The notes under the pieces: generated by a model
Told to the model about the DNA's origin: nothing
Seen by the model: only the letters and a program-made list of their open reading frames with translations
Databases searched by the model: none
Shown here: positions 1,199 to 11,993 of the stretch, in pieces
Layout: every line of letters begins with the position of its first letter
Numbering within the stretch: the stretch's first letter is position 1
Translations under genes and position numbers: made by a program
Origin: a bacterium
Lineage (GTDB): Bacteria > Patescibacteriota > Minisyncoccia > Phycocordibacterales > UBA2100
Length of the DNA: 64,000 bases
NCBI GenBank assembly: GCA_030674455.1
Contig: JAUSGQ010000015.1
Span: forward strand, 5,574-69,573
Direction of reading: 5' to 3'

Positions 1199-1906
1199 AT
1201 GAACAGCCCAATCATCGGCGCGCGCGCCGCACAATTCAAGAACTACGGAATCGCGTTCGTCATCACAGCGGCGATTTTCGCGACCGCGCTGTATGCCTCC
1301 AACTATTTCAATGACCGGCGCATCGCCGAAATTCGCACGACGCAGGACAATATTTCCATAGACATTCTCTCGCTTGAAACTCAATTTGAGCTTCTTGCCG
1401 AACATTCGTGCAAAGATATTTCGGAAAATTCGGTTTTATCGAAGGAAATCCGTCCGTTGGCAGACCGTCTTTCATATCTTGAGAACCAAACTTCGGTAGA
1501 CGAGGAGGAACTGCTCCGGCTCAAGCGCTACTATTCCCTGCTTCAGATAAAAGACCTTCTACTGATGAAAAAAGTCGCTTCAAAATGCAAATTGAAATCC
1601 GTGTTCATTCTTTATTTCTATTCCAATGAAGGCGATTGCAAAGATTGCGAGAACCAAGGATACGTTTTGACTGCCCTATCCGAAAAGTACCCGCAGCTGC
1701 GCATCTATTCTTTCGACTACAATCTCGACCTCTCTGCCCTTCAAACGCTCCTCAGCATTAGCGATGTGGAAAATAAATTACCCGCGCTCTCTATCAACGA
1801 CAAGATTTATTATGGATTCAAAGGAGTGGATGATATTGAGAAAATCCTTCCGCAGCTGGCGACACTCGACAAGACAGCGACAAGTACGAAGAGCAGTTCC
1901 CGCTAG
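1199..1906 (+). CDS. Hypothetical membrane-anchored protein with a CxxC (CKDC) motif, possibly a thioredoxin-like fold
   Basis: 235 aa ORF with an N-terminal TM helix and a CKDC motif. The start codon sits in the conserved CTAACATG context. No confident family assignment. Confidence 0.45.
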   Translation: MNSPIIGARAAQFKNYGIAFVITAAIFATALYASNYFNDRRIAEIRTTQDNISIDILSLETQFELLAEHSCKDISENSVLSKEIRPLADRLSYLENQTSVDEEELLRLKRYYSLLQIKDLLLMKKVASKCKLKSVFILYFYSNEGDCKDCENQGYVLTALSEKYPQLRIYSFDYNLDLSALQTLLSISDVENKLPALSINDKIYYGFKGVDDIEKILPQLATLDKTATSTKSSSR

Positions 1907-1918
1907 CGCGCCCAACGT

Positions 1919-2368
1919 TTACTGAAACGTTATTCGAAAGTTATACATTCCCATTGAGCAGAGTCCTTGCATAGTGCCTTGGGCTTGTTCTGGGGAAATT
2001 GGGATTTCTTCCGTCCCTGTCGAACTTAAAAATTTCTGATACCGCAACTTTGGAATCACAAGACTGGCCGAGCAGTCGAATGTGCCTCTGGTGCTGACAC
2101 GAAGTAAGGTCGGCATGCCGGCTTTCGCTACTACGACGCGCGGCGAATAACCGCCCTTGGCCGAAATATCTATGAGCTGTCTGCCTCCCACAATGGAAAC
2201 CACTGATGAACTGTCGGGGCCACTTTGTCTTCCGGCAAACCAGACTGCGCCGAAGATTAGGAGCAGGCTGACGCAGATGGAAACGAGAATTGATTTGTTC
2301 ATCCCATTAGAGACATTTCGCGGTCGTGTATTATTTTGTGACGACATGGAATTTGTAACTTTATACAT
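1919..2368 (-). CDS. Hypothetical membrane-anchored secreted protein (possible cupredoxin-like domain)
   Basis: 149 aa with an N-terminal TM/signal (ILVSICVSLLLIFGAVWFAG) and Cys/Met-rich C-terminal motifs (TFDCSAS, GLCSMGMY). It is the last gene of the metal cluster. Confidence 0.4.
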   Translation of the reverse strand: MYKVTNSMSSQNNTRPRNVSNGMNKSILVSICVSLLLIFGAVWFAGRQSGPDSSSVVSIVGGRQLIDISAKGGYSPRVVVAKAGMPTLLRVSTRGTFDCSASLVIPKLRYQKFLSSTGTEEIPISPEQAQGTMQGLCSMGMYNFRITFQ

Positions 2369-2424
2369 GAAGTGAGTAATTCGATATTTTTTCGCACGAC
2401 CGCGGTCTCTAACGGGACAGGTCC

Positions 2425-3522
2425 CTAAAAATTAAAAAGTGGATTAATGATTCCGGCAGTCGCCAGTGCATTCGAAAGGTTGAGAAGCGCTAGCGCGATT
2501 ACGATGAGACCGGCTGTCTTGAAGAATATTCCTTTCCACGGCTTGTGCGCGATGTTGAGAGAGCCGAATGATAGGAGCGCCAGCATGGGAAGCGTGCCGA
2601 GAGCGAAGAATGTCATGGTGAGAGCGCCTGTCATGAAGCTGCCTGTCGAGAGCGCGTAGAGCTGCATTGATTGTGTGAATCCACACGGCAGAAAGAACGT
2701 TCCGATGCCGACGAGCACAGGGGCTAGGTAGTGATCGTGCCTGCTTCCGCGCACTACATGCCGCGAGAAAACTTTAGGGAGCGTGAACTGTAAGCGTTTT
2801 GTGAAATGGAACACGTCAAGCAGGTTAATTCCAAGAATGAGCATCACGAGAGCGACAATGACTCCAAGAACAATATTGGCCGTTAGTCCGAGATGAAGAG
2901 AATTACCGAGTATTCCCACAACGCCGCCCAAAACAAAAAAACCGGCCAATCTTCCAACATGAAATAACGATTGCGTTCTCCATGTCCCGCCTTCTTTTGC
3001 GGAACTTGCGGAAAGCGAGAGTACAAGCCCGCCCACTATCGCAAGACACGTAGAAACAGAGGCAATGAGTCCGATTACAAACGCAGTTCCATAACTCACA
3101 TCCGACGAAGTAATCAGATTGGTTAATCCGGCTTTTTGGAGTGCAAGAAATCCAACTATGATAACGAGCGCTATGGGAAATGCGTAGGCAAAATCTCCCC
3201 AGCCGGCATTCTTCTTAGCTTTTTCCAAAGAAAGCGTATAGCCGTGGCCTTTAACAAGCTTCGTCAGCTCTTCGGCTATCAACTCCGGCGCTTTGGCAAA
3301 CTCTCCCGCAATCGTTACCTGATGGCTTGCGAGCGAGGCCTCCACACGGGAAACATTCGGCAACTCCTTAAACGTCTCCTCAATGAGGAGCGTGCAGGAG
3401 GCGCAATGCATTCCGTGTACGTGAAAGGTGTAAGTCTGTTGTTGCGCTTCTGAGCCTATGAGTCCGACATCGGCACCTGTAGACGGACCGACCGATCCAT
3501 GGTCGGCATCTGTAGACGACAT
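2425..3522 (-). CDS. HMA (heavy-metal-associated) domain fused to a multi-TM DsbD_2/CcdA-like membrane domain
   Basis: GMHCASC metal-binding motif in a ferredoxin-like HMA domain, followed by about 8 TM helices with LPCGFT and STCLAIVGG motifs. The N-terminal 20 aa (MSSTDADHGSVGPSTGADVG) are encoded by a copy of the GTCTACAG palindromic element. Confidence 0.7.
   Translation of the reverse strand: MSSTDADHGSVGPSTGADVGLIGSEAQQQTYTFHVHGMHCASCTLLIEETFKELPNVSRVEASLASHQVTIAGEFAKAPELIAEELTKLVKGHGYTLSLEKAKKNAGWGDFAYAFPIALVIIVGFLALQKAGLTNLITSSDVSYGTAFVIGLIASVSTCLAIVGGLVLSLSASSAKEGGTWRTQSLFHVGRLAGFFVLGGVVGILGNSLHLGLTANIVLGVIVALVMLILGINLLDVFHFTKRLQFTLPKVFSRHVVRGSRHDHYLAPVLVGIGTFFLPCGFTQSMQLYALSTGSFMTGALTMTFFALGTLPMLALLSFGSLNIAHKPWKGIFFKTAGLIVIALALLNLSNALATAGIINPLFNF
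3470..3519 (-). repeat. In-frame copy of the GTCTACAG(A/G)TGCCGA palindromic element (doubled) encoding the HMA protein N-terminus
   Basis: On the coding strand the sequence is ATGTCGTCTACAGATGCCGACCATGGATCGGTCGGTCCGTCTACAGGTGCCGAC, which matches the intergenic element in repeats R1, R5 and R6. Confidence 0.6.
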
Positions 3523-3551
3523 AAGGCACCATCTTATCATGCCAGCATTCT

Positions 3552-3806
3552 TCACGCCTTAATTTTGTTGGACAGTATCGCGTACAAACCGACAGCCAAG
3601 TATGCAATCACATTCCAGATCACGAGACCGGTGATAAATGTCGTGAGCGTTGCGACGTTCTCGCCCACGTTTGCATTTGTGTGGAGACCGTAATACATAA
3701 ACGCTGACACGATGTTCGGAAACAAAGCTACTCCGAGATAACAAACCGCATACACGATGCTTATCCACGCCGCAGTAACCTTCAAAAGATGTTTTGTGTT
3801 TATCAT
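3552..3806 (-). CDS. Small hypothetical membrane protein (2-3 TM)
   Basis: 84 aa hydrophobic ORF in the co-directional metal cluster. Confidence 0.4.
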   Translation of the reverse strand: MINTKHLLKVTAAWISIVYAVCYLGVALFPNIVSAFMYYGLHTNANVGENVATLTTFITGLVIWNVIAYLAVGLYAILSNKIKA

Positions 3807-3864
3807 AAATATTAAATTTCATTCTAATAATAGACGCTAATAAATATCGACCTTTTTGTTGATG

Positions 3865-4347
3865 CTATTTGAGGGTCCATGTGAAATTCCTTTCGGGGAC
3901 GTCAATGTTGAGGATTTTTAGCTGTACCTGTTTCGGCACAGAAGTGCTTGTCATAAACGACAGAACGCCCTCGCGGTGGTGTCCGCCGGGAGGCGCTCCG
4001 TCCCATTTCGTGGGACGATATATCCTGTTGCTGTCGTCAACGAGAACCGCAGTTGTGAGCATGTCTTGGTCCAATGAACCGGAATGCACATCGAGTACCA
4101 CCTTGAATTTCCACACCGAGTCCGCGGCAGAAAGCTGGAATGGGGTAACCGTTACGGCGACTATTCCTTGCGAATCGGTTATTTCCTCATATCCCGCGCC
4201 CACTGAACTTTGTGCGGGCGGTTCGGGAGGAAAGCCGGAACTGGAACCAGGCTGCGGTTGACTGTTTTGTCCGTAAGCGAGAAACAGAGCAACGATAATA
4301 GCGCCTCCGATAACGAGAAGTGGTACGTTGTTTTTTGTTTTTTCCAT
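3865..4347 (-). CDS. Hypothetical secreted / membrane-anchored protein
   Basis: 160 aa with an N-terminal TM, a Gln/Pro/Ser-rich linker and a beta-rich C-terminal domain with a GGHH motif. Part of the metal cluster. Confidence 0.5.
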   Translation of the reverse strand: MEKTKNNVPLLVIGGAIIVALFLAYGQNSQPQPGSSSGFPPEPPAQSSVGAGYEEITDSQGIVAVTVTPFQLSAADSVWKFKVVLDVHSGSLDQDMLTTAVLVDDSNRIYRPTKWDGAPPGGHHREGVLSFMTSTSVPKQVQLKILNIDVPERNFTWTLK

Positions 4348-4355
4348 ATATTTTC

Positions 4356-4829
4356 TTATCTACTGATTTGCATAGCGTAAACTTTTCTTATGCTATTAAG
4401 TATGAAGGCAATCCCCGCAAGATTGAAGAGCAAGCCGACCCAGAATAATTCTACCTGATATTGCGTCACAAAGGTTACGGCTCCCGAAATACCGAGAATT
4501 GGAAGCAAATTCGCAAGATAATGAGTGCAGCACGAAATCATCGCGGCGGTAGAGGTTGTGCCGGTTACTCCCAAGACTTTCCCACTTCCTCCCCCGCCTG
4601 CGGTGAGCGGCGTCGAACTGCCGTGAACAAGATTGCGCAGATAGATAAAAAGGCCGATCTGTATTCCGAATCCAATCGCAAGAGCAACGACGAAGTACCA
4701 GAAGTCCAAGAACTGGTCGACGGTGAAACTCCAGCCGGAAACAAACGTCAGAGCAAGAAAATAGACAGCAAGCAGAATGAGAGATGCTCCGAGCCCAAAG
4801 ACGATTGATTTTGCTATTGTATTTCTCAT
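4356..4829 (-). CDS. MerT-like heavy-metal transport membrane protein (CC motif)
   Basis: 4 TM helices. ISCCTHYLANLLPILGISGA resembles the MerT signature SACCLGPLVLIALGFSGA. The upstream Arg-rich extension in the ORF track looks non-coding, so the start was taken at MRNTIAKS. Confidence 0.45.
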   Translation of the reverse strand: MRNTIAKSIVFGLGASLILLAVYFLALTFVSGWSFTVDQFLDFWYFVVALAIGFGIQIGLFIYLRNLVHGSSTPLTAGGGGSGKVLGVTGTTSTAAMISCCTHYLANLLPILGISGAVTFVTQYQVELFWVGLLFNLAGIAFILNSIRKVYAMQISR

Positions 4830-4861
4830 ATCATTCAACCATCCGAGAACTTTTACACGTT

Positions 4862-5134
4862 TCAATGGCAGCATCCGCCTTTCTCGTGGCTTTCCGTATC
4901 TGCCTGTTCGGATGCGGCGGCTTTGCTGTTTCCGTCGAAACCGCGTCCTCCATGTCCTTTCCACATCATCCAGACATGAGGCACAACGCAGACACCAAGG
5001 ATAATCAGCCACAGATATCCGGAGGAAAATAATTTCTCTCCGCCAAAAAATAGGAATCCGATAAGTAACAGACATGGGACCATCATCCAGAGCATGGCTT
5101 TGTGCCCGCCGTACTTGTTATTGTAATTGTGCAT
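4862..5134 (-). CDS. Small 2-TM membrane protein ending in ...GGCCH (putative metal-binding tail)
   Basis: 90 aa ORF in a different frame from the spurious N-terminal extension of the MerT-like ORF, with two clear TM helices and a C-terminal Cys-Cys-His. Confidence 0.4.
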   Translation of the reverse strand: MHNYNNKYGGHKAMLWMMVPCLLLIGFLFFGGEKLFSSGYLWLIILGVCVVPHVWMMWKGHGGRGFDGNSKAAASEQADTESHEKGGCCH

Positions 5135-5169
5135 AATGAATTAAATTGTGAATTAATTGCCATTCCCAA

Positions 5170-5197
5170 CGTTTTGCCTGCCCGCGCAGGCAAAACG
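5170..5197. promoter_or_regulatory. Perfect 28 bp palindrome CGTTTTGCCTGCCCGCGCAGGCAAAACG
   Basis: Read directly from the sequence. It lies between the His-rich protein gene and the small CCH protein gene and has no T tract, so it looks more like an operator than a terminator. Confidence 0.4.
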
Positions 5198-5216
5198 TCA
5201 AGTGTGCCACAATTGC

Positions 5217-6338
5217 CTAGATACCGCAGCCGCTTTGCTGGCGAGGCTGCGCAGACGCACCGCCGGCTTCTACGCCGCAGCCGCTGCCGCCTCCGCCCTG
5301 CGCGGGAGCGCTCACTTGCGATAGAATGTTCCGAAATCCTGCCGCACTTGAATAATTCACTCCTAGCATCTCGCGCGGAGAGACTTTTTTCCAATCAATT
5401 CCCTTGCCTTGCATGTATTCCGCCATGGTGAGATACGTGTCCGGGAACCAGTATGAGTTGACCTTTAGAGCATACTTGTACATATTCTCCTCGCTCATGC
5501 CTTGAGCAGCCATGAGTTCCAATAGCCCGAGCATCGCCATGCCGTGATTGCAGTCGGGGAAATGCGTGGAATTTCCGCAGCACGGCCGATAAATGTTTCG
5601 CGACACGCGGTCGACAAGTTCCTGCTGCTCTTCAGTCAACGCCACGAGCGCGTGCTTGCCGTAGTGTTCCATTGCGCCGCCTTTCGCAATTGTCCATCCG
5701 CCGGTTGAGGCAAAATTCCCGGCTCCGCCGTATGCCGGATTCATCATTTCCGTTTTGTCGCCCAGTATCGGATTTTCATTGGCAAGTCCGAATGCCCAGA
5801 GCAAATTCAAGAGATATCCGGCGTTATTTCCATCGATTGTAAGCTCACCATTGGTACGCCCTGAAAGAAGTTTTTCGTACTCGGAAGGGAACGAGCCGCC
5901 GGTTGTGGCGGCAGGCCAAGCCACGAAATCTGCTGATTCGCCTGTAGACGGACCGCGCGACTCGTAAACTTGTTTGAGCGCGACGGGGTCAATGGCACCG
6001 GCTTCAACCAGCCGCGCGCCCAAATCGCCCCACACAACCGGCAGCTTGACGCCTTTCGCCGGAAGAACCGCCTCTTCAATCGCAGAAGGACCGGAAGCAC
6101 TTCCTGTTTTTGCAAACAGATTCGCGATGCTTCCCCATTGCGAGCCGGGCATTGCGCTCGCGATAATAATTCCCGCGATAATGATACTGACCGGAGTTCC
6201 GTACTCTTGGTAAAGCGCTTTCCAGTTTACTCCTTTAGACGCGGAATGTTCCGAGTGATGATGCTGGCAGCACGAATGTGTGGCATGTTCCTGATGCGTG
6301 CCGGAATGATGTATATTATTCGACGAATGATTTTCCAT
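5217..6338 (-). CDS. His/Cys-rich membrane-anchored protein (putative metal-binding), novel
   Basis: N-terminus HHSGTHQEHATHSCCQHHHSEHS, one TM, then a large extracytoplasmic domain with CCGNSTHFPDCNHGM and a C-terminal GGGGSGCG...SGCGI. Contains an in-frame GTCTACAGG fragment (GPSTGES). Confidence 0.5.
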   Translation of the reverse strand: MENHSSNNIHHSGTHQEHATHSCCQHHHSEHSASKGVNWKALYQEYGTPVSIIIAGIIIASAMPGSQWGSIANLFAKTGSASGPSAIEEAVLPAKGVKLPVVWGDLGARLVEAGAIDPVALKQVYESRGPSTGESADFVAWPAATTGGSFPSEYEKLLSGRTNGELTIDGNNAGYLLNLLWAFGLANENPILGDKTEMMNPAYGGAGNFASTGGWTIAKGGAMEHYGKHALVALTEEQQELVDRVSRNIYRPCCGNSTHFPDCNHGMAMLGLLELMAAQGMSEENMYKYALKVNSYWFPDTYLTMAEYMQGKGIDWKKVSPREMLGVNYSSAAGFRNILSQVSAPAQGGGGSGCGVEAGGASAQPRQQSGCGI

Positions 6339-6363
6339 AGTTAAGTGATAATTAATTAATAAT

Positions 6364-6807
6364 CTAACAGCAATCTTTCATCTTCTGCTCGATTTCCGCG
6401 ACGGTTCCTTCACGCGGTTTTACTCGCGAAGACAAAAATAGGAACGATACCAGCACGAGAAATGCAAGAGCAAGAAACGCCGCCGCCCATAGCTCAGCAA
6501 GAATTCCATAAGCAGCGACGAATCCAGCCGGAATAAAGAGGATTTTAAGGAGGAGACGAGATTGCTGGGACGAGCCCGCAAGCATCTTCTCCATCTGGTA
6601 AGCGATGCCGACAACCGAACCGCCCATTAGAAGCGCCGGGATTATTAGAGTTATTTCGTAGCCCAGGAAGTGAGCGGCAAGAAGCCCTGCCCACGTGACA
6701 AACACGCCGGAACAAATCGGGCAAACCTGAACCGGCAGTATTTTGTTTGCCACCCACGTCAACCCCGTGATGATGAGGATTGAGACAACTGTGATTGTTA
6801 TGAGCAT
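6364..6807 (-). CDS. Membrane protein with CPIC (CxxC) in TM1 and a C-terminal CC
   Basis: 147 aa, 4 predicted TM helices, Cys motifs. Co-operonic with the metal cluster. Confidence 0.5.
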   Translation of the reverse strand: MLITITVVSILIITGLTWVANKILPVQVCPICSGVFVTWAGLLAAHFLGYEITLIIPALLMGGSVVGIAYQMEKMLAGSSQQSRLLLKILFIPAGFVAAYGILAELWAAAFLALAFLVLVSFLFLSSRVKPREGTVAEIEQKMKDCC

Positions 6808-6822
6808 ACTTGTTCGAGCTGA

Positions 6823-7602
6823 TCAGAATACGAGGATAAGAGTTCCCAATACTATCATGGCAATTCCGGCGATAAGGCGGACCCGGTCGATATGGTCGCG
6901 CTTCCATCCCTGCATTTTTTCTACGACTCCTTTATCCGCTGCAAACCAAAGCACCAAGACGAGCGGAACTATCAGCACGAGATTGTAGAGCAAGAGATAC
7001 CAGAATCCCGCGAAATAGGTTACCTGGTCGCGCAAGAGACCTATGACCATAAGGTATGGCCCGCCCATGCAGGGGAACTGGCAAATTCCCACAAGAAGTC
7101 CGAGGCCGAAAGCCGCTATAATGGAGGTCTTTTCCAACAGCTTCGCCATCGGTTTATGCGCTATTGCAGGCATCTTGAGCTTGAGGGGAATGTTCGGGAA
7201 GAATCTGTTCAGGAGATTGATGATGCCGAAGAGAATGAGAATTGATGCGCCAAGCTTGCCCATGAAGTGCGGCGTGTTGAAGAGGTGCAATACTTTCAAG
7301 AGTCCGAGCCCTATCAAGAGATAAGAGGCGAAAATGCCTGCAATGTATACGCCTCCTATCTGCAAGATTTTCTCCCGCGTCAACTGTAATCCGAACAGGA
7401 ATGCTATCGTGATGAGGAGAATCGAGAACGAGCATGGATGCACGCTATCGAGGAGCGAAGAGATGAGTACAAGCGGAAGAAGCCACGCGCCGCCTTGGCT
7501 TATGTTCCAGATTATCTCCGAAGTAGCCGGACTGAATTTAAGGATGAGTATCGCGAGAATGAACGTGCCAATAACGCCAGCGATGATTAGAAGCCGTTGC
7601 AT
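6823..7602 (-). CDS. Cytochrome c biogenesis CcdA / DsbD transmembrane-domain-like protein
   Basis: Multi-TM with conserved Cys in TM helices (HPCSF, CQFPC), typical of the DsbD/CcdA thiol-disulfide transporter family. Start taken at MQRLLIIAG to abut the DUF1573 gene stop. Confidence 0.6.
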   Translation of the reverse strand: MQRLLIIAGVIGTFILAILILKFSPATSEIIWNISQGGAWLLPLVLISSLLDSVHPCSFSILLITIAFLFGLQLTREKILQIGGVYIAGIFASYLLIGLGLLKVLHLFNTPHFMGKLGASILILFGIINLLNRFFPNIPLKLKMPAIAHKPMAKLLEKTSIIAAFGLGLLVGICQFPCMGGPYLMVIGLLRDQVTYFAGFWYLLLYNLVLIVPLVLVLWFAADKGVVEKMQGWKRDHIDRVRLIAGIAMIVLGTLILVF

Positions 7603-7603
7603 A

Positions 7604-8128
7604 CTAAGGTGTAACGAGTGCCTTGATATCAAGCTGAAGAACGCCGCCGGCTTCATCGGTGAGCGTCACGAACCGGTCGATTTGGCCGACGCCGGCAGGG
7701 CCGTGAGCATTGGGGTCATAGACTACGCGCACGGTTCGGCTTTCTCCCGGCTTCAACGTTTCGTTTGCGGGCGGAATGTAGCCCATGCCAGGCATTCGAA
7801 ACGGCCCTTTCACACTCCCCTCGGCAGTGAGGAGGTAGGCGGTAGTACACATGCAGGATGTGAACATGCTGCTAACTGTAATGTCTTTTTCGGTCGGATT
7901 CGTTACGCTGAATTCTTTGTACACGAGCCCATTCTTCATGGAGATAGTGCCAAAGTCGTAAAGAATTTCCGGAGCGGCAAGTTCGCTTTTTTGGCCGCCG
8001 GTCGTGGCGGCACCTGTAGACGGTCCTCCGCTTGCTTGCGCCGGCAGAGGCGCTTGATTGGTGCGGCCCCACCACATGAGGCCGAATCCGACGAGAACGA
8101 CAGCCGCGACTGTAAGTATTGTTTTCAT
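7604..8128 (-). CDS. DUF1573-like membrane-anchored protein
   Basis: N-terminal TM, Gly/Thr linker (containing in-frame GPSTGA from a GTCTACAGG fragment), then an Ig-like domain with an SCMCT motif, as in DUF1573 proteins. Confidence 0.6.
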   Translation of the reverse strand: MKTILTVAAVVLVGFGLMWWGRTNQAPLPAQASGGPSTGAATTGGQKSELAAPEILYDFGTISMKNGLVYKEFSVTNPTEKDITVSSMFTSCMCTTAYLLTAEGSVKGPFRMPGMGYIPPANETLKPGESRTVRVVYDPNAHGPAGVGQIDRFVTLTDEAGGVLQLDIKALVTP

Positions 8129-8162
8129 GTTGTTTAGGATTGATGTTCGTAATGGCAAACAC

Positions 8163-8218
8163 AAAACTCGCGTGTAAACGCGAGCGAGAGCGCAAAAAAA
8201 GCCCGGCTTTTTTTGCGC
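8163..8218 (-). terminator. Tandem hairpins (GCGCAAAAAAAGCC-CGG-GCTTTTTTTGCGC and CTCGCGTGTAAACGCGAG) followed by a T run on the minus strand
   Basis: Read from the sequence. Positioned just 3' of the 8221-8640 minus-strand gene. Confidence 0.6.
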
Positions 8219-8220
8219 TC

Positions 8221-8640
8221 TTAAAATGCGGACGGGCTATTTTCAAATAACGAGAGCCATCTTTTGGCCTCTCTATTCTGCGGAGAGGAAACGGGATGCC
8301 GCGAGTATCGTAAGAGCCCGGGCGAAAGTGCGGGCGGAGGAATCGTGAACAAGAAGAATCCGCACGCTAAGAGAAGTAGCGCAATAATAAAAATAATCGT
8401 ATTGATGACAACAGGCGCAGCCGTAAGCGATTGATATGCCGAGATATGATGAACGGCCGCCGCAACTAGATCTTGAGGGCAGAGCGGCTCTCCCATAACG
8501 GAGAACGGGCAATCGCTCTCTATGCCCGTGTCGGCGTGGGCCATTGTCGCAAAACTAAAAAATACGATTGCAAGAAGCGACACAAGCATGAACGCCGCGG
8601 CGATTCTTTTTTGCAGAGATGCATGATGTACTGTTTTCAT
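8221..8640 (-). CDS. Hypothetical membrane protein
   Basis: 139 aa with a signal/TM, a DCPF...PLCPQD motif and two further TM helices. Confidence 0.45.
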   Translation of the reverse strand: MKTVHHASLQKRIAAAFMLVSLLAIVFFSFATMAHADTGIESDCPFSVMGEPLCPQDLVAAAVHHISAYQSLTAAPVVINTIIFIIALLLLACGFFLFTIPPPALSPGLLRYSRHPVSSPQNREAKRWLSLFENSPSAF

Positions 8641-8804
8641 AAATACGGAGTGTCAGCCCTTACAGCATGACTGATAATTTCCAAATTGCAACTTTTGTGT
8701 TCCTTGCACCACGCCTCGCATCTCTTTTTCCACTCCTCCTCTTTGTAAGCTGATCCGCATTCGCTGCAAACGTATACGAGCGGCGTTATTTTAGATGTTG
8801 CCAT
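8637..8804 (-). CDS. Small Cys-rich (CxxC...CxxxC...C) zinc-ribbon-like protein, 56 aa, absent from the ORF track
   Basis: Manual translation gives MATSKITPLVYVCSECGSAYKEEEWKKRCEAWCKEHKSCNLEIISHAVRADTPYL*. Its stop overlaps the ATG of the downstream gene (ATGA). Confidence 0.35.
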   Translation of the reverse strand: MATSKITPLVYVCSECGSAYKEEEWKKRCEAWCKEHKSCNLEIISHAVRADTPYL

Positions 8805-8808
8805 GGTT

Positions 8809-11223
8809 TTAGAGCCGCTTCGCTTTCAAACGAAGCGAGTTCCCGACGACGGATACGCTTGAGAACGCCATGGCAAGCCCCGCGAACACGGGACTTAGCA
8901 GCCAGCCGAATAGTGGGAAGAATATTCCGGTCGCAAGAGGAATTCCCACGATATTGTATATGAATGCCCAGAAAAGATTCTGTTTGATGCCGCGCATCGT
9001 CAGTTTGGAAAGCCGGATGGCTTTCACCAGTTTTGAAATATCGCCGTGCAGGAGCGTGATACCCGCAGACTCAATGGCGACATCTGTTCCTGTCGCCATG
9101 GCGATGCCAACGTCGGCCTGTGCGAGGGCCGGTGCGTCGTTGACGCCGTCTCCCGCCATGGCTACTACCAGCCGCTGGCTGGAATTTTCAATTTTTAATT
9201 TCCAATTTTCAAATTTCCCAGACTGCAAATCTTTAATCAGATTAAGTTTATCTTCGGGCAGGACTTCGGCCACAACTTCGTCTATTCCCGCTTGCTCAGC
9301 AATGAATGCGGCGGTGCGTTTGTCGTCGCCCGTCAGCATGACCACTTTGATTCCGAGCGCGTGCAAATCCTTGACCGCAGCAACAGCTTCCGGTTTGATT
9401 TGGTCGGCTATCATCGCAACCGCAAGAACCGTATTTTCTGCAACAAGTATGACCGGGGTTTTTCCTTCCGATGTGTCCTTCTCAACCATGTCCCGCAACT
9501 TGGCGGTTGAACCGCCAAGTTGGTCGATACCTTTGATACTGCCGACAAAGTACTTTACGCCGCCGATACTGCCACCAATCCCCTTGCCTTTTACACTCTC
9601 AAATTCCTCAACGGGCAACAGCGTGATATTTTTCTCTTTTGCATTCGAAACAACCGCGTGCGCAATCGGATGCTCCGATTTATTTTCAAGCGAAGCAAGA
9701 ATCGCGATAATTTCCGCATCGCTTTTCCTCGATAGATTTTGCAGAGAAACCAATTCGGGCTTGCCTTTCGTAATCGTCCCGGTCTTATCCATTAAGACAA
9801 CGCTGACTTTGTGCAATTTCTCGAGAGTGGCCGCGTCTTTTACCAGTATCCCTTCACGCGCTCCCTTTCCGACTCCTACGATTATTGCTGTCGGTGTGGC
9901 GAGACCAAGTGCGCATGGGCATGCGATTACCAATATTCCCACGAACGAGACAAGACCGAATGAAAGTGCTTGAGAAAATCCGAGATATTGAGACCCGATT
10001 GCGAGCCACGCTCCCAGAGAAACGAACGCGATGACCAGTACAATGGGCACAAAAACGGCCGAAATTTTGTCCGCAAGCGCTTGTATGGGCGCGCGGCTTC
10101 CCTGCGCCTCCTCAACCATTTTCACTATGTGTGCAAGCATGGTTTCTTGGCCGACTTTCGTCGCTTTGAACGTAAATGAACCGCTCGTGTTTATTGTTCC
10201 GGCTACGACTGAATCACCGACGGCTTTTTTGACCGGCATCGGCTCGCCCGTCACCATTGATTCGTCCACGTGCGAGGAACCTTCCGTCAAAATTCCATCA
10301 ACGGGGATTTTACCCGCCGGTTTTACGACAACAATATCTCCCACGACCACTTGATCAATTGGGATTTCAATCTCTTGCCCTTCGAAGCCCTTGGGCGAAG
10401 TAGGGTCTTTTCCCTCCCGTATTACCAATGCGGTTTTTGCCTGCAAGTTCAAAAGTTTCTCTATCGCGTCCCCCGTCTTTACTTTCGCGCGGGCTTCAAG
10501 ATATTTTCCGAGAGCAATGAAAGTAATAACGATTATTGTTACGTCAAAGTACGTGGCGTCTATATTTATGAAGCGGCTTAAAGATGCTCCAAAAAACAGG
10601 ATGGCTAAACTGTATACATATGCGACGGAGGTTCCAAGTCCTATAAGCGTATCCATATTGGCCTTCCCATAGCGCAAAAAACGATAAAAACCCAAAAGGT
10701 ACGGTTTTCCAACGACAAAAAGTACGTAAGTCGCCATGAGCGGAAGCAAATAATTTATGGGAACTTTCAGCACGGATGGAATCGGGCCGACAGTGCCAAA
10801 TTGAGATAGAACATCCCACCCCAAAATGAGTGCGCTTATAATTGAGAGCGGTACAGCTGAAACTACCTTCCATTTCAAATCGGCGATTTCAGCGAGCTTT
10901 TCTTCCTTTGATTGGTTAAGCCCAAGATGAGCCGCGTGCTCATCCTCCGACATTCCCATTTCACTCGCACTGAGCGAAGTCGAAGTGTGCGCCGACATCC
11001 CCTCTCTTGCTTTCGGCTGAATGAAAGAGTATCCGAGCGGCTTTATTTTTTCCGAAAGATGATGCGGATTTGTTTTTACCTCGTCGTATGAGATTTTCGC
11101 CGCCTCGGTGCCGTAATTAACTTCCACGGATTGCACGCCTTCGACTTTCTTTAGCGTCTTTTCGATAATCGCCGCACAGCTGGCGCAATGCATGCCCCTT
11201 ATGTTAAGCGTCTTATTGATCAT
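8809..11223 (-). CDS. copA: Copper-translocating P1B-type ATPase CopA
   Basis: N-terminal HMA domain ([15 protein letters not shown]), [20 protein letters not shown] and 8 TM helices. Start taken at [10 protein letters not shown]; the longer ORF in the track overlaps csoR. Confidence 0.9.
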
Positions 11224-11361: not shown

Positions 11362-11616
11362 CTATTTCCTCTTGAGCTTATAAACATTGATAATTTCTCC
11401 GACCGCCTTTTTCGCGCTGCCGTTTTTTATCTGCTTCACCAAGCAGGTTGATAAGTGGTCCTGCAGTATCAAGTCTTCCACATTTGACAATCCCTGCTTT
11501 ACCGCTGAACTCTGCGTGATGACATCGATACAATACGCATCTTTTTCTATCATCTCGCGAAGTCCTCTCACCTGGCCCTCGATTATATTCAATCGCCGCA
11601 CAGTGTCCGTTTTCAT
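11362..11616 (-). CDS. csoR: CsoR/RcnR-family metal-sensing transcriptional repressor
   Basis: 84 aa with the DUF156 fold hallmarks: conserved C (YCIDV) and an H...C pair (HLSTC). Sits immediately upstream of copA. Confidence 0.8.
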   Translation of the reverse strand: MKTDTVRRLNIIEGQVRGLREMIEKDAYCIDVITQSSAVKQGLSNVEDLILQDHLSTCLVKQIKNGSAKKAVGEIINVYKLKRK

Positions 11617-11622
11617 ACTTGG

Positions 11623-11862
11623 TTATGCGTGAATATCCTTTTTCATGCTTTCAAACTGTTCCCTCGTAATCTCGCCCTTCGCATAGCGAGTCTTTAGGAT
11701 GTCGAGAGCCGACTCACGCGAAGTACCATTGCCGGTATTGGTGTTGCGCACAAGCCAAACGATGCCCGCGATGACGAGAGCCCAGAACGCGAGCATTCCG
11801 ATAAAACCCAAGAAATGAAACGGAAAGAATCCGCCATCGTAATTTCCGTAGTAGTACATCAT
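11623..11862 (-). CDS. SHOCT-domain membrane protein
   Basis: 79 aa with an N-terminal TM and a C-terminal ILKTRYAKGEITREQFESMKKDI, the SHOCT motif. Confidence 0.7.
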   Translation of the reverse strand: MMYYYGNYDGGFFPFHFLGFIGMLAFWALVIAGIVWLVRNTNTGNGTSRESALDILKTRYAKGEITREQFESMKKDIHA

Positions 11863-11941
11863 AGAGATAGGTAGCAGGTTATAGGTTACAGGTAGTAGTT
11901 AGTAGAGGATGCGAAACTAATGTGCCAATAATAGCGCTAGT

Positions 11942-11959
11942 ATACCCCCCAGGGGGTAT
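11942..11959. promoter_or_regulatory. CsoR-type operator ATACCCCCCAGGGGGTAT upstream of the SHOCT-csoR-copA operon
   Basis: GC-tract pseudo-palindrome matching the known CsoR operator architecture (ATACCC-N-GGGTAT), about 80 bp upstream of the first gene of the operon. Confidence 0.6.
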
Positions 11960-11993
11960 CTGTCAATGTGGATGTGGAAAACTCGCAACCCCC

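What the first reader, a model, noticed from the sequence alone, without database searches (positions are those of the whole stretch)
1919..8804. Ten-gene minus-strand metal-homeostasis cluster containing several uncharacterised Cys/His-rich membrane proteins
Upstream of copA-csoR lies a co-directional array:
- A DUF1573 protein.
- A CcdA/DsbD-like protein.
- A CxxC/CC membrane protein.
- A 373 aa protein with N-terminal HHSGTHQEHATHSCCQHHHSEHS and CCGNSTHFPDCNHGM motifs.
- A 90 aa 2-TM protein ending GGCCH, which the overlapping spurious extension of the MerT-like ORF hides.
- A MerT-like CC-motif transporter.
- Two small secreted or membrane proteins.
- An HMA-DsbD_2 fusion.
- A possible cupredoxin-like protein.
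- A 56 aa Cys-rich zinc-ribbon ORF (8637-8804) that the ORF track missed.

The combination points to a mercury/copper thiol-based handling system. Several members have no recognisable family. The 28 bp palindrome at 5170-5197 is a candidate internal operator.
Basis: partly seen in the sequence, partly recalled or inferred. Interest (0 to 1): 0.55.

Follow-up and report, generated by a model that had tools for sequence, protein, structure and literature searches.

The report
Copper-defence gene island of ultra-small bacteria
This is a copper-stress gene island from a Patescibacteria (CPR) genome, in which a standard copper sensor and pump are joined to several uncharacterised cysteine-rich envelope proteins that stay together across hundreds of species.

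Summary
The gene array is real. It holds 12 genes in 1919-8804, not ten, and is part of a 15-gene co-directional unit that starts at a CsoR-operator promoter at 11939-11966.

Profile searches confirm CsoR, a Cu(I) P-type ATPase, DUF1573, DUF5676 and HMA-DsbD_2. The "cupredoxin" is a homologue of the Cu(I) chaperone CupA, with its Cys...CxMxM ligands aligned. The "CcdA-like" protein belongs to the DsbD superfamily. The "MerT-like" protein has no MerT signal in any of 17 orthologues.

Five proteins match no family at all and two reach only sub-threshold matches. All seven carry invariant Cys or His.

In 80 species-level genomes the genes are strongly co-conserved as four modules. The core is mem139, then a DsbD-type membrane protein with a Cys2His ectoprotein, then a protein ending in DCC, then the 373-aa protein. 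The middle two slots are each filled by one of two interchangeable alternatives.

Best reading: a copper-stress island that pairs CopA efflux with a thiol-reducing, Cu(I)-binding relay across the membrane. Mercury is not supported. The 5169-5198 palindrome is real but not conserved, and the true CsoR operator lies at 11942-11959.

This is a new variant of a known kind, of moderate to high interest.

The parts
11939..11966 (-). Promoter with embedded CsoR operator: -35 TTGACA (11966-11961), box ATACCCCCTGGGGGGTAT (11959-11942), -10 TATACT (11944-11939)
   Evidence: Sequence read. Best promoter match of the region, 11 of 12. It is the only TACC[CT]-N3-8-[AG]GGTA box in 64 kb. In related loci 31 of 52 such boxes lie just upstream of csoR.
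11623..11862 (-). SHOCT-domain small membrane protein, first gene of the unit
   Evidence: Pfam SHOCT, 1.1e-9. Present in 26 of 80 loci.
11362..11616 (-). CsoR-family Cu(I)-sensing repressor (C29, H54, C58)
   Evidence: Pfam Trns_repr_metal, 5.5e-24. The ligand triad is visible in the sequence. C29 and H54 are invariant in 44 orthologues.
8809..11223 (-). CopA, P1B-1 Cu(I)-exporting ATPase with one N-terminal HMA domain
   Evidence: Pfam E1-E2_ATPase, Hydrolase and HMA. CPC, YN(x4)P and MxxSS motifs in the translation. Present in 57 of 80 loci.
8637..8804 (-). 55-aa cytoplasmic Cys-rich zinc-ribbon-like protein (CxxC...CxxxC)
   Evidence: ORF. No Pfam family. Orthologues in 6 loci with conserved Cys.
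8221..8640 (-). mem139: 2-TM protein with an outward loop carrying invariant C44 and C54, strongly conserved H64 and H65 (0.74, 0.84), and a conserved RWLSLFENSPS tail.
   Evidence: No Pfam family. Present in 46 of 80 loci, always at the head of the core module. Invariant residues. Topology from K+R counts.
8166..8221 (-). Tandem hairpins directly after mem139: a 17-bp stem (8187-8221), then a terminator-like hairpin with a T-run (8166-8185)
   Evidence: z = -7.5. A strong hairpin at this junction is conserved in 61% of 46 loci and at no other junction of the cluster.
7604..8128 (-). DUF1573 Ig-like ectoprotein with invariant C92-x-C94 and H142, anchored by an N-terminal TM
   Evidence: Pfam DUF1573, 3.4e-9. 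Invariant residues. Present in 55 of 80 loci, and nearly mutually exclusive with a thioredoxin-fold CxxxC protein in the same slot.
6823..7602 (-). CcdA/DsbD-superfamily membrane protein (C57 in an (N/H)PC motif; C174-x3-C178 in an FPC motif; outward H106 and H112)
   Evidence: The window copy gives only sub-threshold SfLAP, ArsG and TsoB hits. Of 25 orthologues, 8 hit Pfam DsbD_TM (best 9.4e-8) and 20 hit SfLAP. blastp to a canonical DsbD_TM neighbour gives 1.8e-4. Present in 54 of 80 loci at a median of 69% identity.
6364..6807 (-). CxxC147: 5-TM protein with an invariant CPIC at the cytoplasmic entry of TM2 and an invariant C-terminal ...DCC
   Evidence: No Pfam or NCBIfam family. Invariant Cys. 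Topology. Fused to the 373-aa-type domain in P0128. Never co-occurs with a soluble DCC-tail protein that fills the same slot.
5217..6338 (-). HisCys373: an N-in TM anchor with a ~290-aa ectodomain. It has invariant W181, C253, C254, D262, C263 and C354, near-invariant H265, and a genome-specific cytoplasmic His/Cys-rich N-terminal insertion.
   Evidence: No Pfam, NCBIfam or PDB match. More than 6,400 homologues, all annotated hypothetical. 708 representative clusters. Invariant residues. AF2 model with core pLDDT above 85 and no significant PDB fold match.
5169..5198 (.). Perfect 13-nt inverted repeat with a 4-nt spacer between HisCys373 and the GGCCH gene
   Evidence: It is not conserved at this junction in related loci.
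4862..5134 (-). GGCCH90: 2-TM protein with invariant C21 in TM1 and a cytoplasmic C-terminal CCH
   Evidence: Weak sub-threshold DUF2933 hit. 16 orthologues. Invariant residues. Topology.
4356..4829 (-).
   Evidence: No family in the window copy or in 17 orthologues. Alignment A4. Topology. Always paired with sec160.
3865..4347 (-). sec160: membrane-anchored beta-sandwich ectoprotein with invariant H88 and GGHHREG (H123, H124)
   Evidence: AF2 mean pLDDT 84. Foldseek PDB hits are MPT63 at 1.6e-4, DUF4426, and H. pylori CrdA at 2.6e-3. Weak DUF5643 in orthologues.
3552..3806 (-). DUF5676 2-TM protein (invariant H6, C22, H42)
   Evidence: Pfam DUF5676, 4.7e-10. Invariant residues. Present in 10 of 80 loci.
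2425..3555 (-). HMA-DsbD_2 fusion: a cytoplasmic MHCASC metal-binding domain with a 6-TM domain carrying invariant C170 and C291 (likely start near 3522)
   Evidence: Pfam DsbD_2 at 1.8e-30 and HMA at 4.6e-12. The HMA domain is closest to Cu-ATPase domains in PDB. Present in 31 of 80 loci.
1919..2368 (-). CupA-like cupredoxin-fold Cu(I) chaperone homologue (C99; C137-x-M-x-M), N-terminal TM anchor, likely start at 2302
   Evidence: Pfam Cupredoxin_1, 28.3 bits against a cutoff of 27. phmmer to S. pneumoniae CupA (4f2e/2mry) gives 1.9e-4 with both ligand motifs aligned. Follows HMA-DsbD_2 in 28 loci.

Best explanation
The region is the distal two-thirds of a copper-stress island in a Patescibacteria (CPR, Kaiserbacteria-like) genome. 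Fifteen co-directional genes run from a CsoR-operator promoter at 11939-11966 down to 1919.

Proposed mechanism:
1. Cytoplasmic Cu(I) binds CsoR (Cys29, His54, Cys58), which then leaves its operator.
2. CopA pumps Cu(I) out.
3. On the outer face of this single-membrane cell, membrane-tethered Cys/His proteins capture Cu(I) by ligand exchange. These are DUF1573 (CxC + His), the 373-aa protein (CC...C-x-H plus a flexible C-terminal Cys arm) and mem139 (two Cys and two His). sec160 (three His) and the CupA-like protein may do the same.
4. Copper and oxidants oxidise these thiols. The CcdA/DsbD-type membrane protein carries reducing equivalents from the cytoplasm to DUF1573 and on to the 373-aa protein, which keeps the system reduced and able to bind metal.
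5. HMA-DsbD_2 with the CupA-like chaperone, and the GGCCH/CC-H/sec160 trio, are parallel three-tier modules (cytoplasmic site, intramembrane Cys, outer-face protein) with the same logic.

What is shown: gene identities, invariant residues, operator sequence, synteny, and the alternative fillings of the middle slots.

What is inferred: topology, the direction of electron or metal flow, co-transcription beyond the hairpin after mem139, and every binding or redox activity.
For: Copper identity:
- CsoR profile with the Cys-His-Cys triad.
- A canonical CsoR box between -35 and -10.
- CopA with CPC/YN/MxxSS motifs.
- A CupA homologue with ligands aligned.
- An HMA domain closest to Cu-ATPase domains.
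- Related loci add YHS, DUF302, DUF305 and HMBD genes.
- A Levybacteria relative is preceded by an ArsR/SmtB regulator.

Co-conservation in 80 species-representative loci: CopA 57, DUF1573 55, CcdA-like 54, mem139 46, CsoR 43, HMA-DsbD_2 31, CupA-like 28. The control neighbour scores 4.

Redox relay:
- The CcdA-like family hits DsbD_TM in 8 of 25 orthologues.
- The slot 'CcdA-like + DUF1573' is filled in 18 other loci by 'canonical DsbD_TM + thioredoxin-fold AhpC/TSA-Redoxin protein with CxxxC and 2 invariant His'. One or the other DsbD-type protein is present in 70 of 80 loci, and both in only 2.
- DUF1573 also pairs with the canonical DsbD_TM in Nealsonbacteria.
- DUF1573 has Sec (UGC) variants at the CxC site (PMC9312934).

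Coupling of membrane Cys proteins to the 373-aa domain: natural fusions exist with CxxC147 (P0128) and with a CPxC multi-TM domain in more than 2,000 proteins.

Invariant Cys or His in every family. Topology from K+R counts.

Precedents: TlpA reduces the Cu-binding Cys of ScoI and CoxB (PMC7558416). The Scs system links DsbD-like ScsB to copper tolerance (PMC10907172 and PMC3322552). HMA+DsbD_2 proteins are predicted CsoR-regulon members in gut Firmicutes (PMC4938975).
Against: - There is no experimental datum for any of the novel proteins.
- The window's CcdA-like copy is below Pfam thresholds. Profile-profile comparison with the DsbD_2 domain found nothing.
- The DsbD/LysE clan also holds metal-ion transporters (established knowledge, not tested here).
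- HMA domains and cytoplasmic CC or CCH tails point to metal passage rather than electron passage.
- The suggested CcmH-like module in the 373-aa protein is not significant. hhalign gives P = 0.03-0.08 against 0.12 for a reversed control. Pfam CcmH gives no hit. Foldseek gives only a 62-column local match at E = 2.2.
- A strong conserved hairpin/terminator sits between mem139 and DUF1573, so CsoR control of the distal genes is not shown.
- CupA in S. pneumoniae works on the cytoplasmic side. The K+R rule here predicts the opposite orientation, so at least one inference is shaky.
Confidence: 0.55

Rival explanations
1. The Cys-lined membrane proteins are thiolate-lined conduits that pass Cu(I) itself, or Ag(I) or Hg(II), across the membrane by ligand exchange. 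The proteins in question are the CcdA-like protein, DsbD_2, the CC-H 4-TM protein, GGCCH90 and CxxC147. Metal would pass from cytoplasmic CC, CCH or HMA sites to the outer-face Cys/His proteins. This would be a Mer-like relay run in the export direction, with no electron transfer.
For: - A true metal-binding HMA domain is fused to DsbD_2 and paired with a CupA homologue.
- Invariant cytoplasmic CC and CCH tails, and a cytoplasmic-face CPIC.
- The window's 373-aa protein gained a cytoplasmic His/Cys-rich tail.
- The canonical DsbD_TM variant in these loci carries vicinal CC in both TM1 and TM4, more Cys than an electron relay needs.
- The Anaerolineales CcdA-like homologue is fused to a secreted domain with a GCADC motif that weakly resembles HMA.
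Against: - No profile similarity to MerT, MerC or MerF.
- The partners in the alternative slot are thioredoxin-fold AhpC/TSA-Redoxin proteins, which are typical redox partners of DsbD/CcdA.
- A Cu(I) ATPase is already present for export.
Confidence: 0.25
2. The system serves copper acquisition or cuproprotein maturation. It would deliver Cu(I) to an extracytoplasmic copper enzyme, like Sco, PCuAC, TlpA and CcoI, rather than detoxify.
For: - The Sco-like ligand sets (Cys2His) and the TlpA-type logic come from cuproenzyme assembly.
- Weak SCO1-SenC hits in 6 of 10 Redoxin-slot proteins.
Against: - The operator position fits a CsoR repressor that switches genes on at high copper.
- The ATPase has the CopA1-type motifs.
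- No cuproenzyme gene is conserved in the neighbourhood.
- The CupA-like protein lacks the type-1 copper His ligands.
Confidence: 0.08
3. A mercury-resistance (mer-like) thiol transport system, as the first reader suggested as an alternative.
For: CC motifs in membrane helices and C-terminal Cys pairs recall MerT, MerF and MerA. The HMA domain also gives weak MerP and MerTP hits.
Against: - No MerR, MerA, MerB or MerP gene, and no MerT profile hit in the window or in 17 orthologues.
- The sensor, pump and chaperone are all copper-type.
Confidence: 0.03
4. A housekeeping extracytoplasmic disulfide-reduction or protein-maturation pathway, analogous to the CcdA-ResA-CcmH reduction of apocytochrome c. 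It would sit next to copper genes without a copper function.
For: The DsbD-type protein with a thiol ectoprotein is the classic maturation pair. There is also a local structural resemblance of the CC...C region to CcmH.
Against: - The association with CsoR, CopA, HMA, YHS and ArsR genes recurs across classes while the modules shuffle.
- No haem-lyase or cytochrome genes are nearby.
- CcmH homology is not significant.
Confidence: 0.05

Closest known systems
Scs (suppressor of copper sensitivity) system: ScsB (DsbD-like) with ScsC/ScsD thioredoxin-fold proteins
   Same: A DsbD-superfamily membrane reductase feeds envelope thiol proteins that bind Cu(I) and repair copper-induced thiol damage. ScsB and DsbD use an Ig-fold Cys domain as the first acceptor, as DUF1573 would here (PMC10907172 and PMC3322552).
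   Different: There is no sequence relationship of the partners. The acceptor here is a separate DUF1573 protein with CxC + His. The terminal protein (373 aa) and the DCC-tail proteins have no Scs counterpart. The host is a monoderm CPR bacterium, and the system is linked to CsoR-CopA.
TlpA-ScoI/CoxB pathway (reduction of copper-binding cysteines before metallation)
   Same: A thioredoxin-fold reductant supplied by DsbD/CcdA keeps the Cys2His copper sites of a membrane-anchored chaperone reduced (PMC7558416).
   Different: That pathway builds cytochrome oxidase. Here no oxidase is present, and the context is a copper-derepressed efflux island.
Streptococcus pneumoniae copY-cupA-copA operon
   Same: A membrane-anchored cupredoxin-fold chaperone with Cys...CxMxM ligands is encoded with a Cu(I) ATPase.
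   Different: The partner here is an HMA-DsbD_2 protein, not a CopA with a cupredoxin domain. The regulator is CsoR, not CopY. The predicted orientation may be outward. CupA was thought to be limited to a few streptococci (PMC7558416).
mer operon transporters MerT/MerC/MerF with MerP
   Same: Cys pairs in membrane helices plus cytoplasmic Cys pairs and an outer metal-binding partner. This is the relay-by-ligand-exchange logic.
   Different: There is no homology, the CC position differs, there is no MerR or MerA, and the context is copper.
COG2836-type HMA + DsbD_2 membrane proteins of Firmicutes
   Same: The same domain architecture, and a predicted place in the CsoR regulon (PMC4938975).
   Different: These proteins are uncharacterised there too. 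Here they are consistently followed by a CupA-like gene.
System I/II cytochrome c thioreduction (CcdA/DsbD, then CcmG/ResA, then CcmH)
   Same: A three-step relay from a DsbD-type protein through an ectoprotein to a terminal small-helical Cys protein. The helix-loop-helix around RPCC...DCNHG superposes locally on CcmH.
   Different: CcmH homology was tested and is not significant. The motif is CC...C, not CxxC. There is no haem machinery.

Membership tests
CsoR (Cu(I)-sensing CsoR/RcnR family) | Trns_repr_metal (DUF156) fold profile | tested here: met
   Pfam PF02583, 5.5e-24, 84.8 bits.
CsoR (Cu(I)-sensing CsoR/RcnR family) | x-Cys-His-Cys Cu(I) ligand signature | tested here: met
   C29, H54 and C58 are in the window protein. 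C29 and H54 are invariant and C58 is present in 52% of 44 orthologues.
CsoR (Cu(I)-sensing CsoR/RcnR family) | GC-rich pseudo-palindromic operator overlapping its own promoter | tested here: met
   ATACCCCCTGGGGGGTAT lies between -35 and -10 at 11942-11959. It is the only such box in the window, and 31 of 52 boxes in related loci precede csoR.
CsoR (Cu(I)-sensing CsoR/RcnR family) | Cu(I)-dependent release from DNA | not testable with these tools
   Needs EMSA or in vivo reporters.
P1B-1 Cu(I) ATPase (CopA) | E1-E2 ATPase and HAD domains with an N-terminal HMA | tested here: met
   Pfam hits at 3.4e-55, 1.8e-31 and 1e-16.
P1B-1 Cu(I) ATPase (CopA) | TM motifs CPC, YN(x4)P and M(x2)SS | tested here: met
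   [15 protein letters not shown] and MAFSSVS are in the translation.
CupA (cupredoxin-fold Cu(I) chaperone) | Sequence similarity to solved CupA | tested here: met
   phmmer against 2mry/4f2e, E = 1.9e-4, residues 61-145 aligned to 11-94. Pfam Cupredoxin_1, 28.3 bits against a cutoff of 27.
CupA (cupredoxin-fold Cu(I) chaperone) | Ligands: one Cys plus a C-x-M-x-M motif | tested here: met
   C99 aligns with the CupA Cys, and C137-S-M-G-M aligns with CupA C-G-M-N-M. Both Cys are invariant in 28 orthologues.
CupA (cupredoxin-fold Cu(I) chaperone) | Cytoplasm-facing domain that docks on a CopA with a cupredoxin-type N-terminal domain | tested here: not met
   CopA here has a ferredoxin-like HMA domain. 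K+R counts favour an outward domain in 23 of 28 orthologues. The orientation is an inference.
Blue-copper (type 1) cupredoxin | His-Cys-His-Met copper site | tested here: not met
   The family has no conserved His, only two Cys and Met.
MerT | MerT profile (Pfam or NCBIfam) | tested here: not met
   No hit in the window copy or in any of 17 orthologues at E up to 1.
MerT | CC pair in TM1 plus a cytoplasmic loop Cys pair, within a mer operon (merR, merP, merA) | tested here: not met
   The only Cys are C100 and C101 in TM3. There are no mer genes in the window region or in related loci.
DsbD/CcdA membrane thiol-disulfide transporters | DsbD_TM profile | tested here: inconclusive
   The window copy has only sub-threshold SfLAP (23.8 bits against 35) and ArsG hits. 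Of 25 orthologues, 8 hit DsbD_TM (best 9.4e-8) and 20 hit SfLAP of the same clan. blastp to a canonical neighbour gives 1.8e-4. hhalign against DsbD_2 is negative.
DsbD/CcdA membrane thiol-disulfide transporters | Conserved Cys in Pro-Cys motifs of TM1 and TM4 | tested here: met
   (N/H)PC57 and FPC178, plus C174, are invariant or nearly so.
DsbD/CcdA membrane thiol-disulfide transporters | Adjacent extracytoplasmic thiol-oxidoreductase partner | tested here: met
   Always next to DUF1573 (CxC). In other lineages the pair is replaced by a canonical DsbD_TM with an AhpC/TSA-Redoxin protein.
DsbD/CcdA membrane thiol-disulfide transporters | Thioredoxin-dependent electron transfer | not testable with these tools
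   Needs complementation or biochemical assay.
HMA + DsbD_2 (COG2836-type) | HMA and DsbD_2 profiles in one polypeptide | tested here: met
   PF00403 at 4.6e-12 and PF13386 at 1.8e-30.
DUF1573 | Pfam profile and the CxC motif | tested here: met
   PF07610, 3.4e-9, 37 bits against a cutoff of 26.1. TSCMCT is invariant in 56 orthologues.
CcmH/NrfF thiol oxidoreductase (for the 373-aa protein) | CcmH profile, or profile-profile similarity | tested here: not met
   No Pfam CcmH hit for 10 C-terminal segments at E up to 10. hhalign gives P = 0.034 and 0.084 against 0.12 for a reversed control.
CcmH/NrfF thiol oxidoreductase (for the 373-aa protein) | Three-helix bundle with LRCxxC in the first loop | tested here: inconclusive
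   Foldseek gives a local match to 2hl7: 62 columns, rmsd 2.5, TM 0.59 on the target, E = 2.2. The motif is RPCC, not CxxC.
DUF5676 / DUF2933 small membrane proteins | Pfam profiles | tested here: inconclusive
   DUF5676 is met (40.7 bits against 27.6). DUF2933 is below its cutoff (17.5 bits against 21) for the GGCCH protein.

The most novel reading that the evidence does not exclude
Four components form a previously unrecognised thiol relay across the membrane, dedicated to copper and spread across the phylum:
- the 373-aa family;
- DUF1573;
- the divergent CcdA-like protein;
- the DCC-tail proteins (membrane CxxC147, or a soluble 199-aa form).

In this reading DUF1573 is an Ig-fold functional replacement for a thioredoxin-fold (Sco/TlpA-like) protein. 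The 373-aa protein is a new class of extracytoplasmic Cu(I)-thiolate protein, with a CC...C-x-H core and a swinging C-terminal Cys arm.
Probability: 0.35. Interest if true: 0.75.

Novelty: new variant of a known kind. Interest (0 to 1): 0.62.

Why it matters
Patescibacteria make up a large share of bacterial diversity. They have tiny genomes and few stress systems, yet they keep this island with 55-70% protein identity across classes.

If the reading is right, it would do four things:
- assign a first function to one very large orphan family (more than 6,400 homologues; 708 clusters at 50% identity) and to DUF1573;
- show that the CupA chaperone type is not confined to streptococci;
- add a monoderm counterpart to the Scs and TlpA copper-redox systems;
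- define a compact set of Cys/His proteins that can be tested directly by heterologous expression and metal-binding assays.

The conserved hairpin after mem139 also offers a handle on how the island is split into expression units.

Tried and rejected
1. MerT homology. Pfam and NCBIfam were run on the window copy, and Pfam on 17 orthologues. Nothing was found.
2. CcmH homology of the RPCC...DCNHG region. Pfam at E up to 10, hhalign with 2 and then 20 CcmH sequences, and a reversed control were all insignificant. The metagenome scan meant to diversify CcmH returned almost only E. coli-like copies.
3. Hidden homology among the cluster's own families. All-against-all hhalign, including CcdA-like against DsbD_2 and the CC-H protein or CxxC147 against the fused N-terminal domains, gave a best probability of 36% over a signal-anchor segment. 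Rejected.
4. PDB sequence searches for the 373-aa protein (single sequence and profile), DUF1573 and sec160 found nothing.
6. The 5169-5198 palindrome as operator or repeat. It is unique in the window, not conserved at this junction, and unlike the CsoR box.
7. Rfam on the region found no RNA family.
8. Long relatives of the 373-aa protein were scanned for informative fused Pfam domains. Only a C-terminal BNR repeat turned up, in one protein.
9. Cluster look-up for taxonomy of the fused forms returned no names.
10. Literature. No paper in the library describes this cluster or family; CPR papers mention only copA.

Full report
**Observation.** The minus strand from 11,966 down to 1,919 carries 15 tightly packed co-directional genes. 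In transcription order these are:
- a 55-aa Cys-rich zinc-ribbon-like ORF (8637-8804);
- DUF1573 (7604-8128);
- a CcdA-like protein (6823-7602);
- a 147-aa CxxC/CC membrane protein (6364-6807);
- the 373-aa protein (5217-6338);
- the 90-aa GGCCH protein (4862-5134);
- a CC-motif 4-TM protein (4356-4829; the 239-aa ORF is an over-extension);
- a 160-aa anchored protein (3865-4347);
- DUF5676 (3552-3806);
- HMA-DsbD_2 (2425-3555);
- a cupredoxin-like protein (1919-2368, likely start 2302).

The palindrome is real (5169-5198). It has 13-nt arms, is unique in the window, has 0 matches expected by chance, and folds with z = -5.3.

**Source.** The 373-aa protein is identical to NCBI 'MAG: hypothetical protein Q7S01_02020 [bacterium]' on a 90-kb contig. 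Its relatives are Kaiserbacteria, Yonathbacteria, Sungbacteria and other Patescibacteria.

**Gene identities.**
- Pfam confirms CsoR, CopA (E1-E2 ATPase, HAD, HMA), SHOCT, DUF1573, DUF5676, HMA + DsbD_2 and Cupredoxin_1.
- CsoR has the Cu(I)-type Cys29/His54/Cys58 triad. CopA has the CPC, YN and MxxSS motifs of Cu(I) pumps.
- The cupredoxin-like protein is a homologue of the S. pneumoniae Cu(I) chaperone CupA. phmmer to 4f2e/2mry gives E = 1.9e-4. The single Cys and the C-x-M-x-M motif are aligned, and both Cys are invariant in 28 orthologues. It is not a blue-copper protein.
- The CcdA-like protein is below threshold in the window. However, 8 of 25 orthologues hit DsbD_TM (best 9.4e-8), 20 hit SfLAP of the same clan, and blastp links it to a canonical DsbD_TM.
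- The 'MerT-like' protein has no MerT signal in the window copy or in 17 orthologues. Its invariant CC-x-H lies in TM3.
- mem139, CxxC147, the 373-aa protein, the CC-H protein and the zinc ribbon match no family. sec160 and GGCCH90 reach only sub-threshold DUF5643 and DUF2933.
- sec160 models confidently as a beta-sandwich (pLDDT 84). Foldseek gives generic Ig-like matches and a modest one to the H. pylori copper protein CrdA.

**The 373-aa family.**
- It has more than 6,400 homologues in the word-indexed search and 708 clusters at 50% identity in the exhaustive search. All are unannotated.
- Across 115 diverse representatives the invariant residues are W181, C253, C254, D262, C263 and C354. 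R251, P252, N256, N264, H265 and G266 are nearly invariant. Together they form the motif RPCC-x-N...DCNHG plus a Gly-rich C-terminal arm ending GxxCG.
- The AF2 model is confident in the core but matches nothing significant in PDB.
- A local resemblance to the CcmH three-helix bundle was followed up and is not statistically supported.

**Comparative genomics.** Eighty species-representative loci anchored on this family were fetched and searched with all window proteins.
- Counts of 80, many loci being truncated: CopA 57, DUF1573 55, CcdA-like 54, mem139 46, CsoR 43, HMA-DsbD_2 31, CupA-like 28, SHOCT 26, CxxC147 22, CC-H protein 18, sec160 18, GGCCH 16, DUF5676 10, zinc ribbon 6. The flanking control gene scores 4.
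- Orientation is co-directional almost without exception.
- Four modules keep their internal order but shuffle relative to each other: [CsoR-CopA]; [mem139 - DUF1573 - CcdA-like - (CxxC147) - 373 aa]; [(SHOCT) - GGCCH - CC-H - sec160]; [HMA-DsbD_2 - CupA-like].
- The middle two slots of the core module have alternative fillings.
  - 'DUF1573 + CcdA-like' is replaced in 18 loci by 'canonical DsbD_TM (with vicinal CC in TM1 and TM4) + an AhpC/TSA-Redoxin protein with CxxxC and two invariant His'. One or the other DsbD-type protein is present in 70 of 80 loci, and both in only 2.
  - The gene directly upstream of the 373-aa gene is either CxxC147 (22 loci) or a soluble 199-aa protein (30 loci), never both. 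Both end in ...DCC.
- In Nealsonbacteria, Levybacteria, Wildermuthbacteria and an Anaerolineales MAG, a CPxC multi-TM domain is fused to the 373-aa-type domain, in more than 2,000 proteins. One protein fuses CxxC147 itself.
- Neighbouring regulators are CsoR or, in Levybacteria, an ArsR/SmtB protein.

**Regulation.**
- The only CsoR box in the window, ATACCCCCTGGGGGGTAT (11942-11959), lies between a perfect -35 and a good -10 upstream of SHOCT-csoR.
- The 5169-5198 palindrome has no conserved counterpart. The 60 nt after the 373-aa gene fold no better than shuffles in 80 loci (median z = 0.09).
- By contrast, the junction after mem139 carries a strong hairpin, often followed by a second hairpin with a T-run. 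The median MFE is -19.9 and the median z is -4.0, with 61% of 46 loci at z below -3. Every other junction in the cluster is near zero.
- CsoR control of the distal genes is therefore plausible but not shown.

**Mechanism.**
- K+R counts place the Cys/His sites in three tiers.
  - Cytoplasmic face: the HMA domain, the CPIC and DCC of CxxC147, the CCH tail and the zinc ribbon.
  - Intramembrane: the CcdA-like protein, DsbD_2, the CC-H protein and C21 of GGCCH90.
  - Outer face: mem139, DUF1573, the 373-aa protein, sec160 and probably the CupA-like protein.
- The alternative pair, a DsbD_TM protein with a thioredoxin-fold protein, sits in the same slot as the CcdA-like/DUF1573 pair. This argues that the core module supplies reducing power to outer-face Cys2His proteins.
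- The copper sensor, pump and chaperone argue that the purpose is copper defence.
- The best integrated model is that CopA exports Cu(I), tethered thiol/His proteins bind it outside, and a DsbD-type relay keeps them reduced. This is analogous to ScsB-ScsC and to TlpA-ScoI.
- The main rival is that the Cys-lined membrane proteins conduct the metal itself. The HMA fusion, the cytoplasmic CC tails and the surplus membrane Cys favour that reading.
- Mercury resistance, cuproenzyme assembly and a housekeeping maturation role are less likely.

**Novelty and limits.**
- The literature library holds no description of this cluster or of the 373-aa family.
- HMA+DsbD_2 proteins were predicted CsoR-regulon members in Firmicutes. 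DUF1573 is known only as a DUF with selenoprotein variants.

Noticed in passing
window 8166-8221 (minus strand); same junction in L007, L008, L009, L012, L038, L049, L078 and others: A long hairpin starts right after the mem139 stop codon and is usually followed by a second hairpin with a T-run. It is conserved in structure across lineages, with different stem sequences. 61% of 46 loci have z below -3, and no other junction of the cluster shows this. It may be a conserved internal terminator, attenuator or mRNA-stabilising element that splits the island into two expression units.
   Followed up: partly
related loci, e.g. L005:7397-7996, L011, L020, L048 (not in the window): A soluble 199-aa protein family has invariant H44, W-C85-x3-H89 and a C-terminal KLVDCC(K/D)E. 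It sits directly upstream of the 373-aa gene in 30 loci and never co-occurs with the membrane CxxC147 protein, which also ends in DCC. No Pfam family.
   Followed up: partly
window 1199-1906 (+ strand): The convergent neighbour is a 235-aa membrane-anchored protein with four conserved Cys, including a thioredoxin-like FYSNEGDCKDC motif, and no Pfam family. It lies next to the island in 4 related loci, and in three of them directly upstream of csoR in the same orientation. It may be an accessory thiol protein of the system.
   Followed up: partly
window 6245-6328 (residues ~4-31 of the 373-aa protein): A 28-aa His/Cys-rich insertion (NNIHHSGTHQEHATHSCCQHHHSEHS) lies in the predicted cytoplasmic N-terminus. 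It is absent from all aligned homologues, including a 78%-identical one.
   Followed up: yes
L005:3544-4401, L088:7155-7991 and 18 of the 80 loci: The canonical DsbD_TM proteins of these islands carry vicinal Cys-Cys pairs in both TM1 (APCC) and TM4 (TCCAP), instead of the usual single Cys in each.
   Followed up: no
L087:13882-15114 (Anaerolineales MAG): A homologue of the window's CcdA-like protein (44% identity) is fused to a signal peptide and a ~185-aa secreted domain with a GCADC motif that weakly resembles HMA. The same contig encodes a fused CPxC/373-aa-type protein, DsbD_TM, Redoxin and HMA genes. The system therefore reaches beyond Patescibacteria.
   Followed up: partly
L089:7726-8004: In a Levybacteria MAG an ArsR/SmtB-type regulator gene overlaps the start of the fused 373-aa-type gene. 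A different metal sensor is wired to the same protein there.
   Followed up: no
window 11994-14471 (minus strand): Directly upstream of the island lies an 825-aa secreted protein. It has a lipase-like GHSQG motif, a long Pro/Ala-rich linker (local GC up to 0.62), Ig-like domains and a Lamin-tail domain. It looks unrelated to the copper island.
   Followed up: no
L023 (JALNWB010000120.1, labelled Ignavibacteriaceae) and P0316 (labelled Devosiaceae): Contigs that carry typical Patescibacteria versions of the island are filed under non-CPR taxa. This is probably mis-binning rather than transfer.
   Followed up: no
L007:8908-13490: The closest relative with the same gene order has about 4.6 kb inserted between the GGCCH gene and the CC-H gene. 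Its content was not examined.
   Followed up: no
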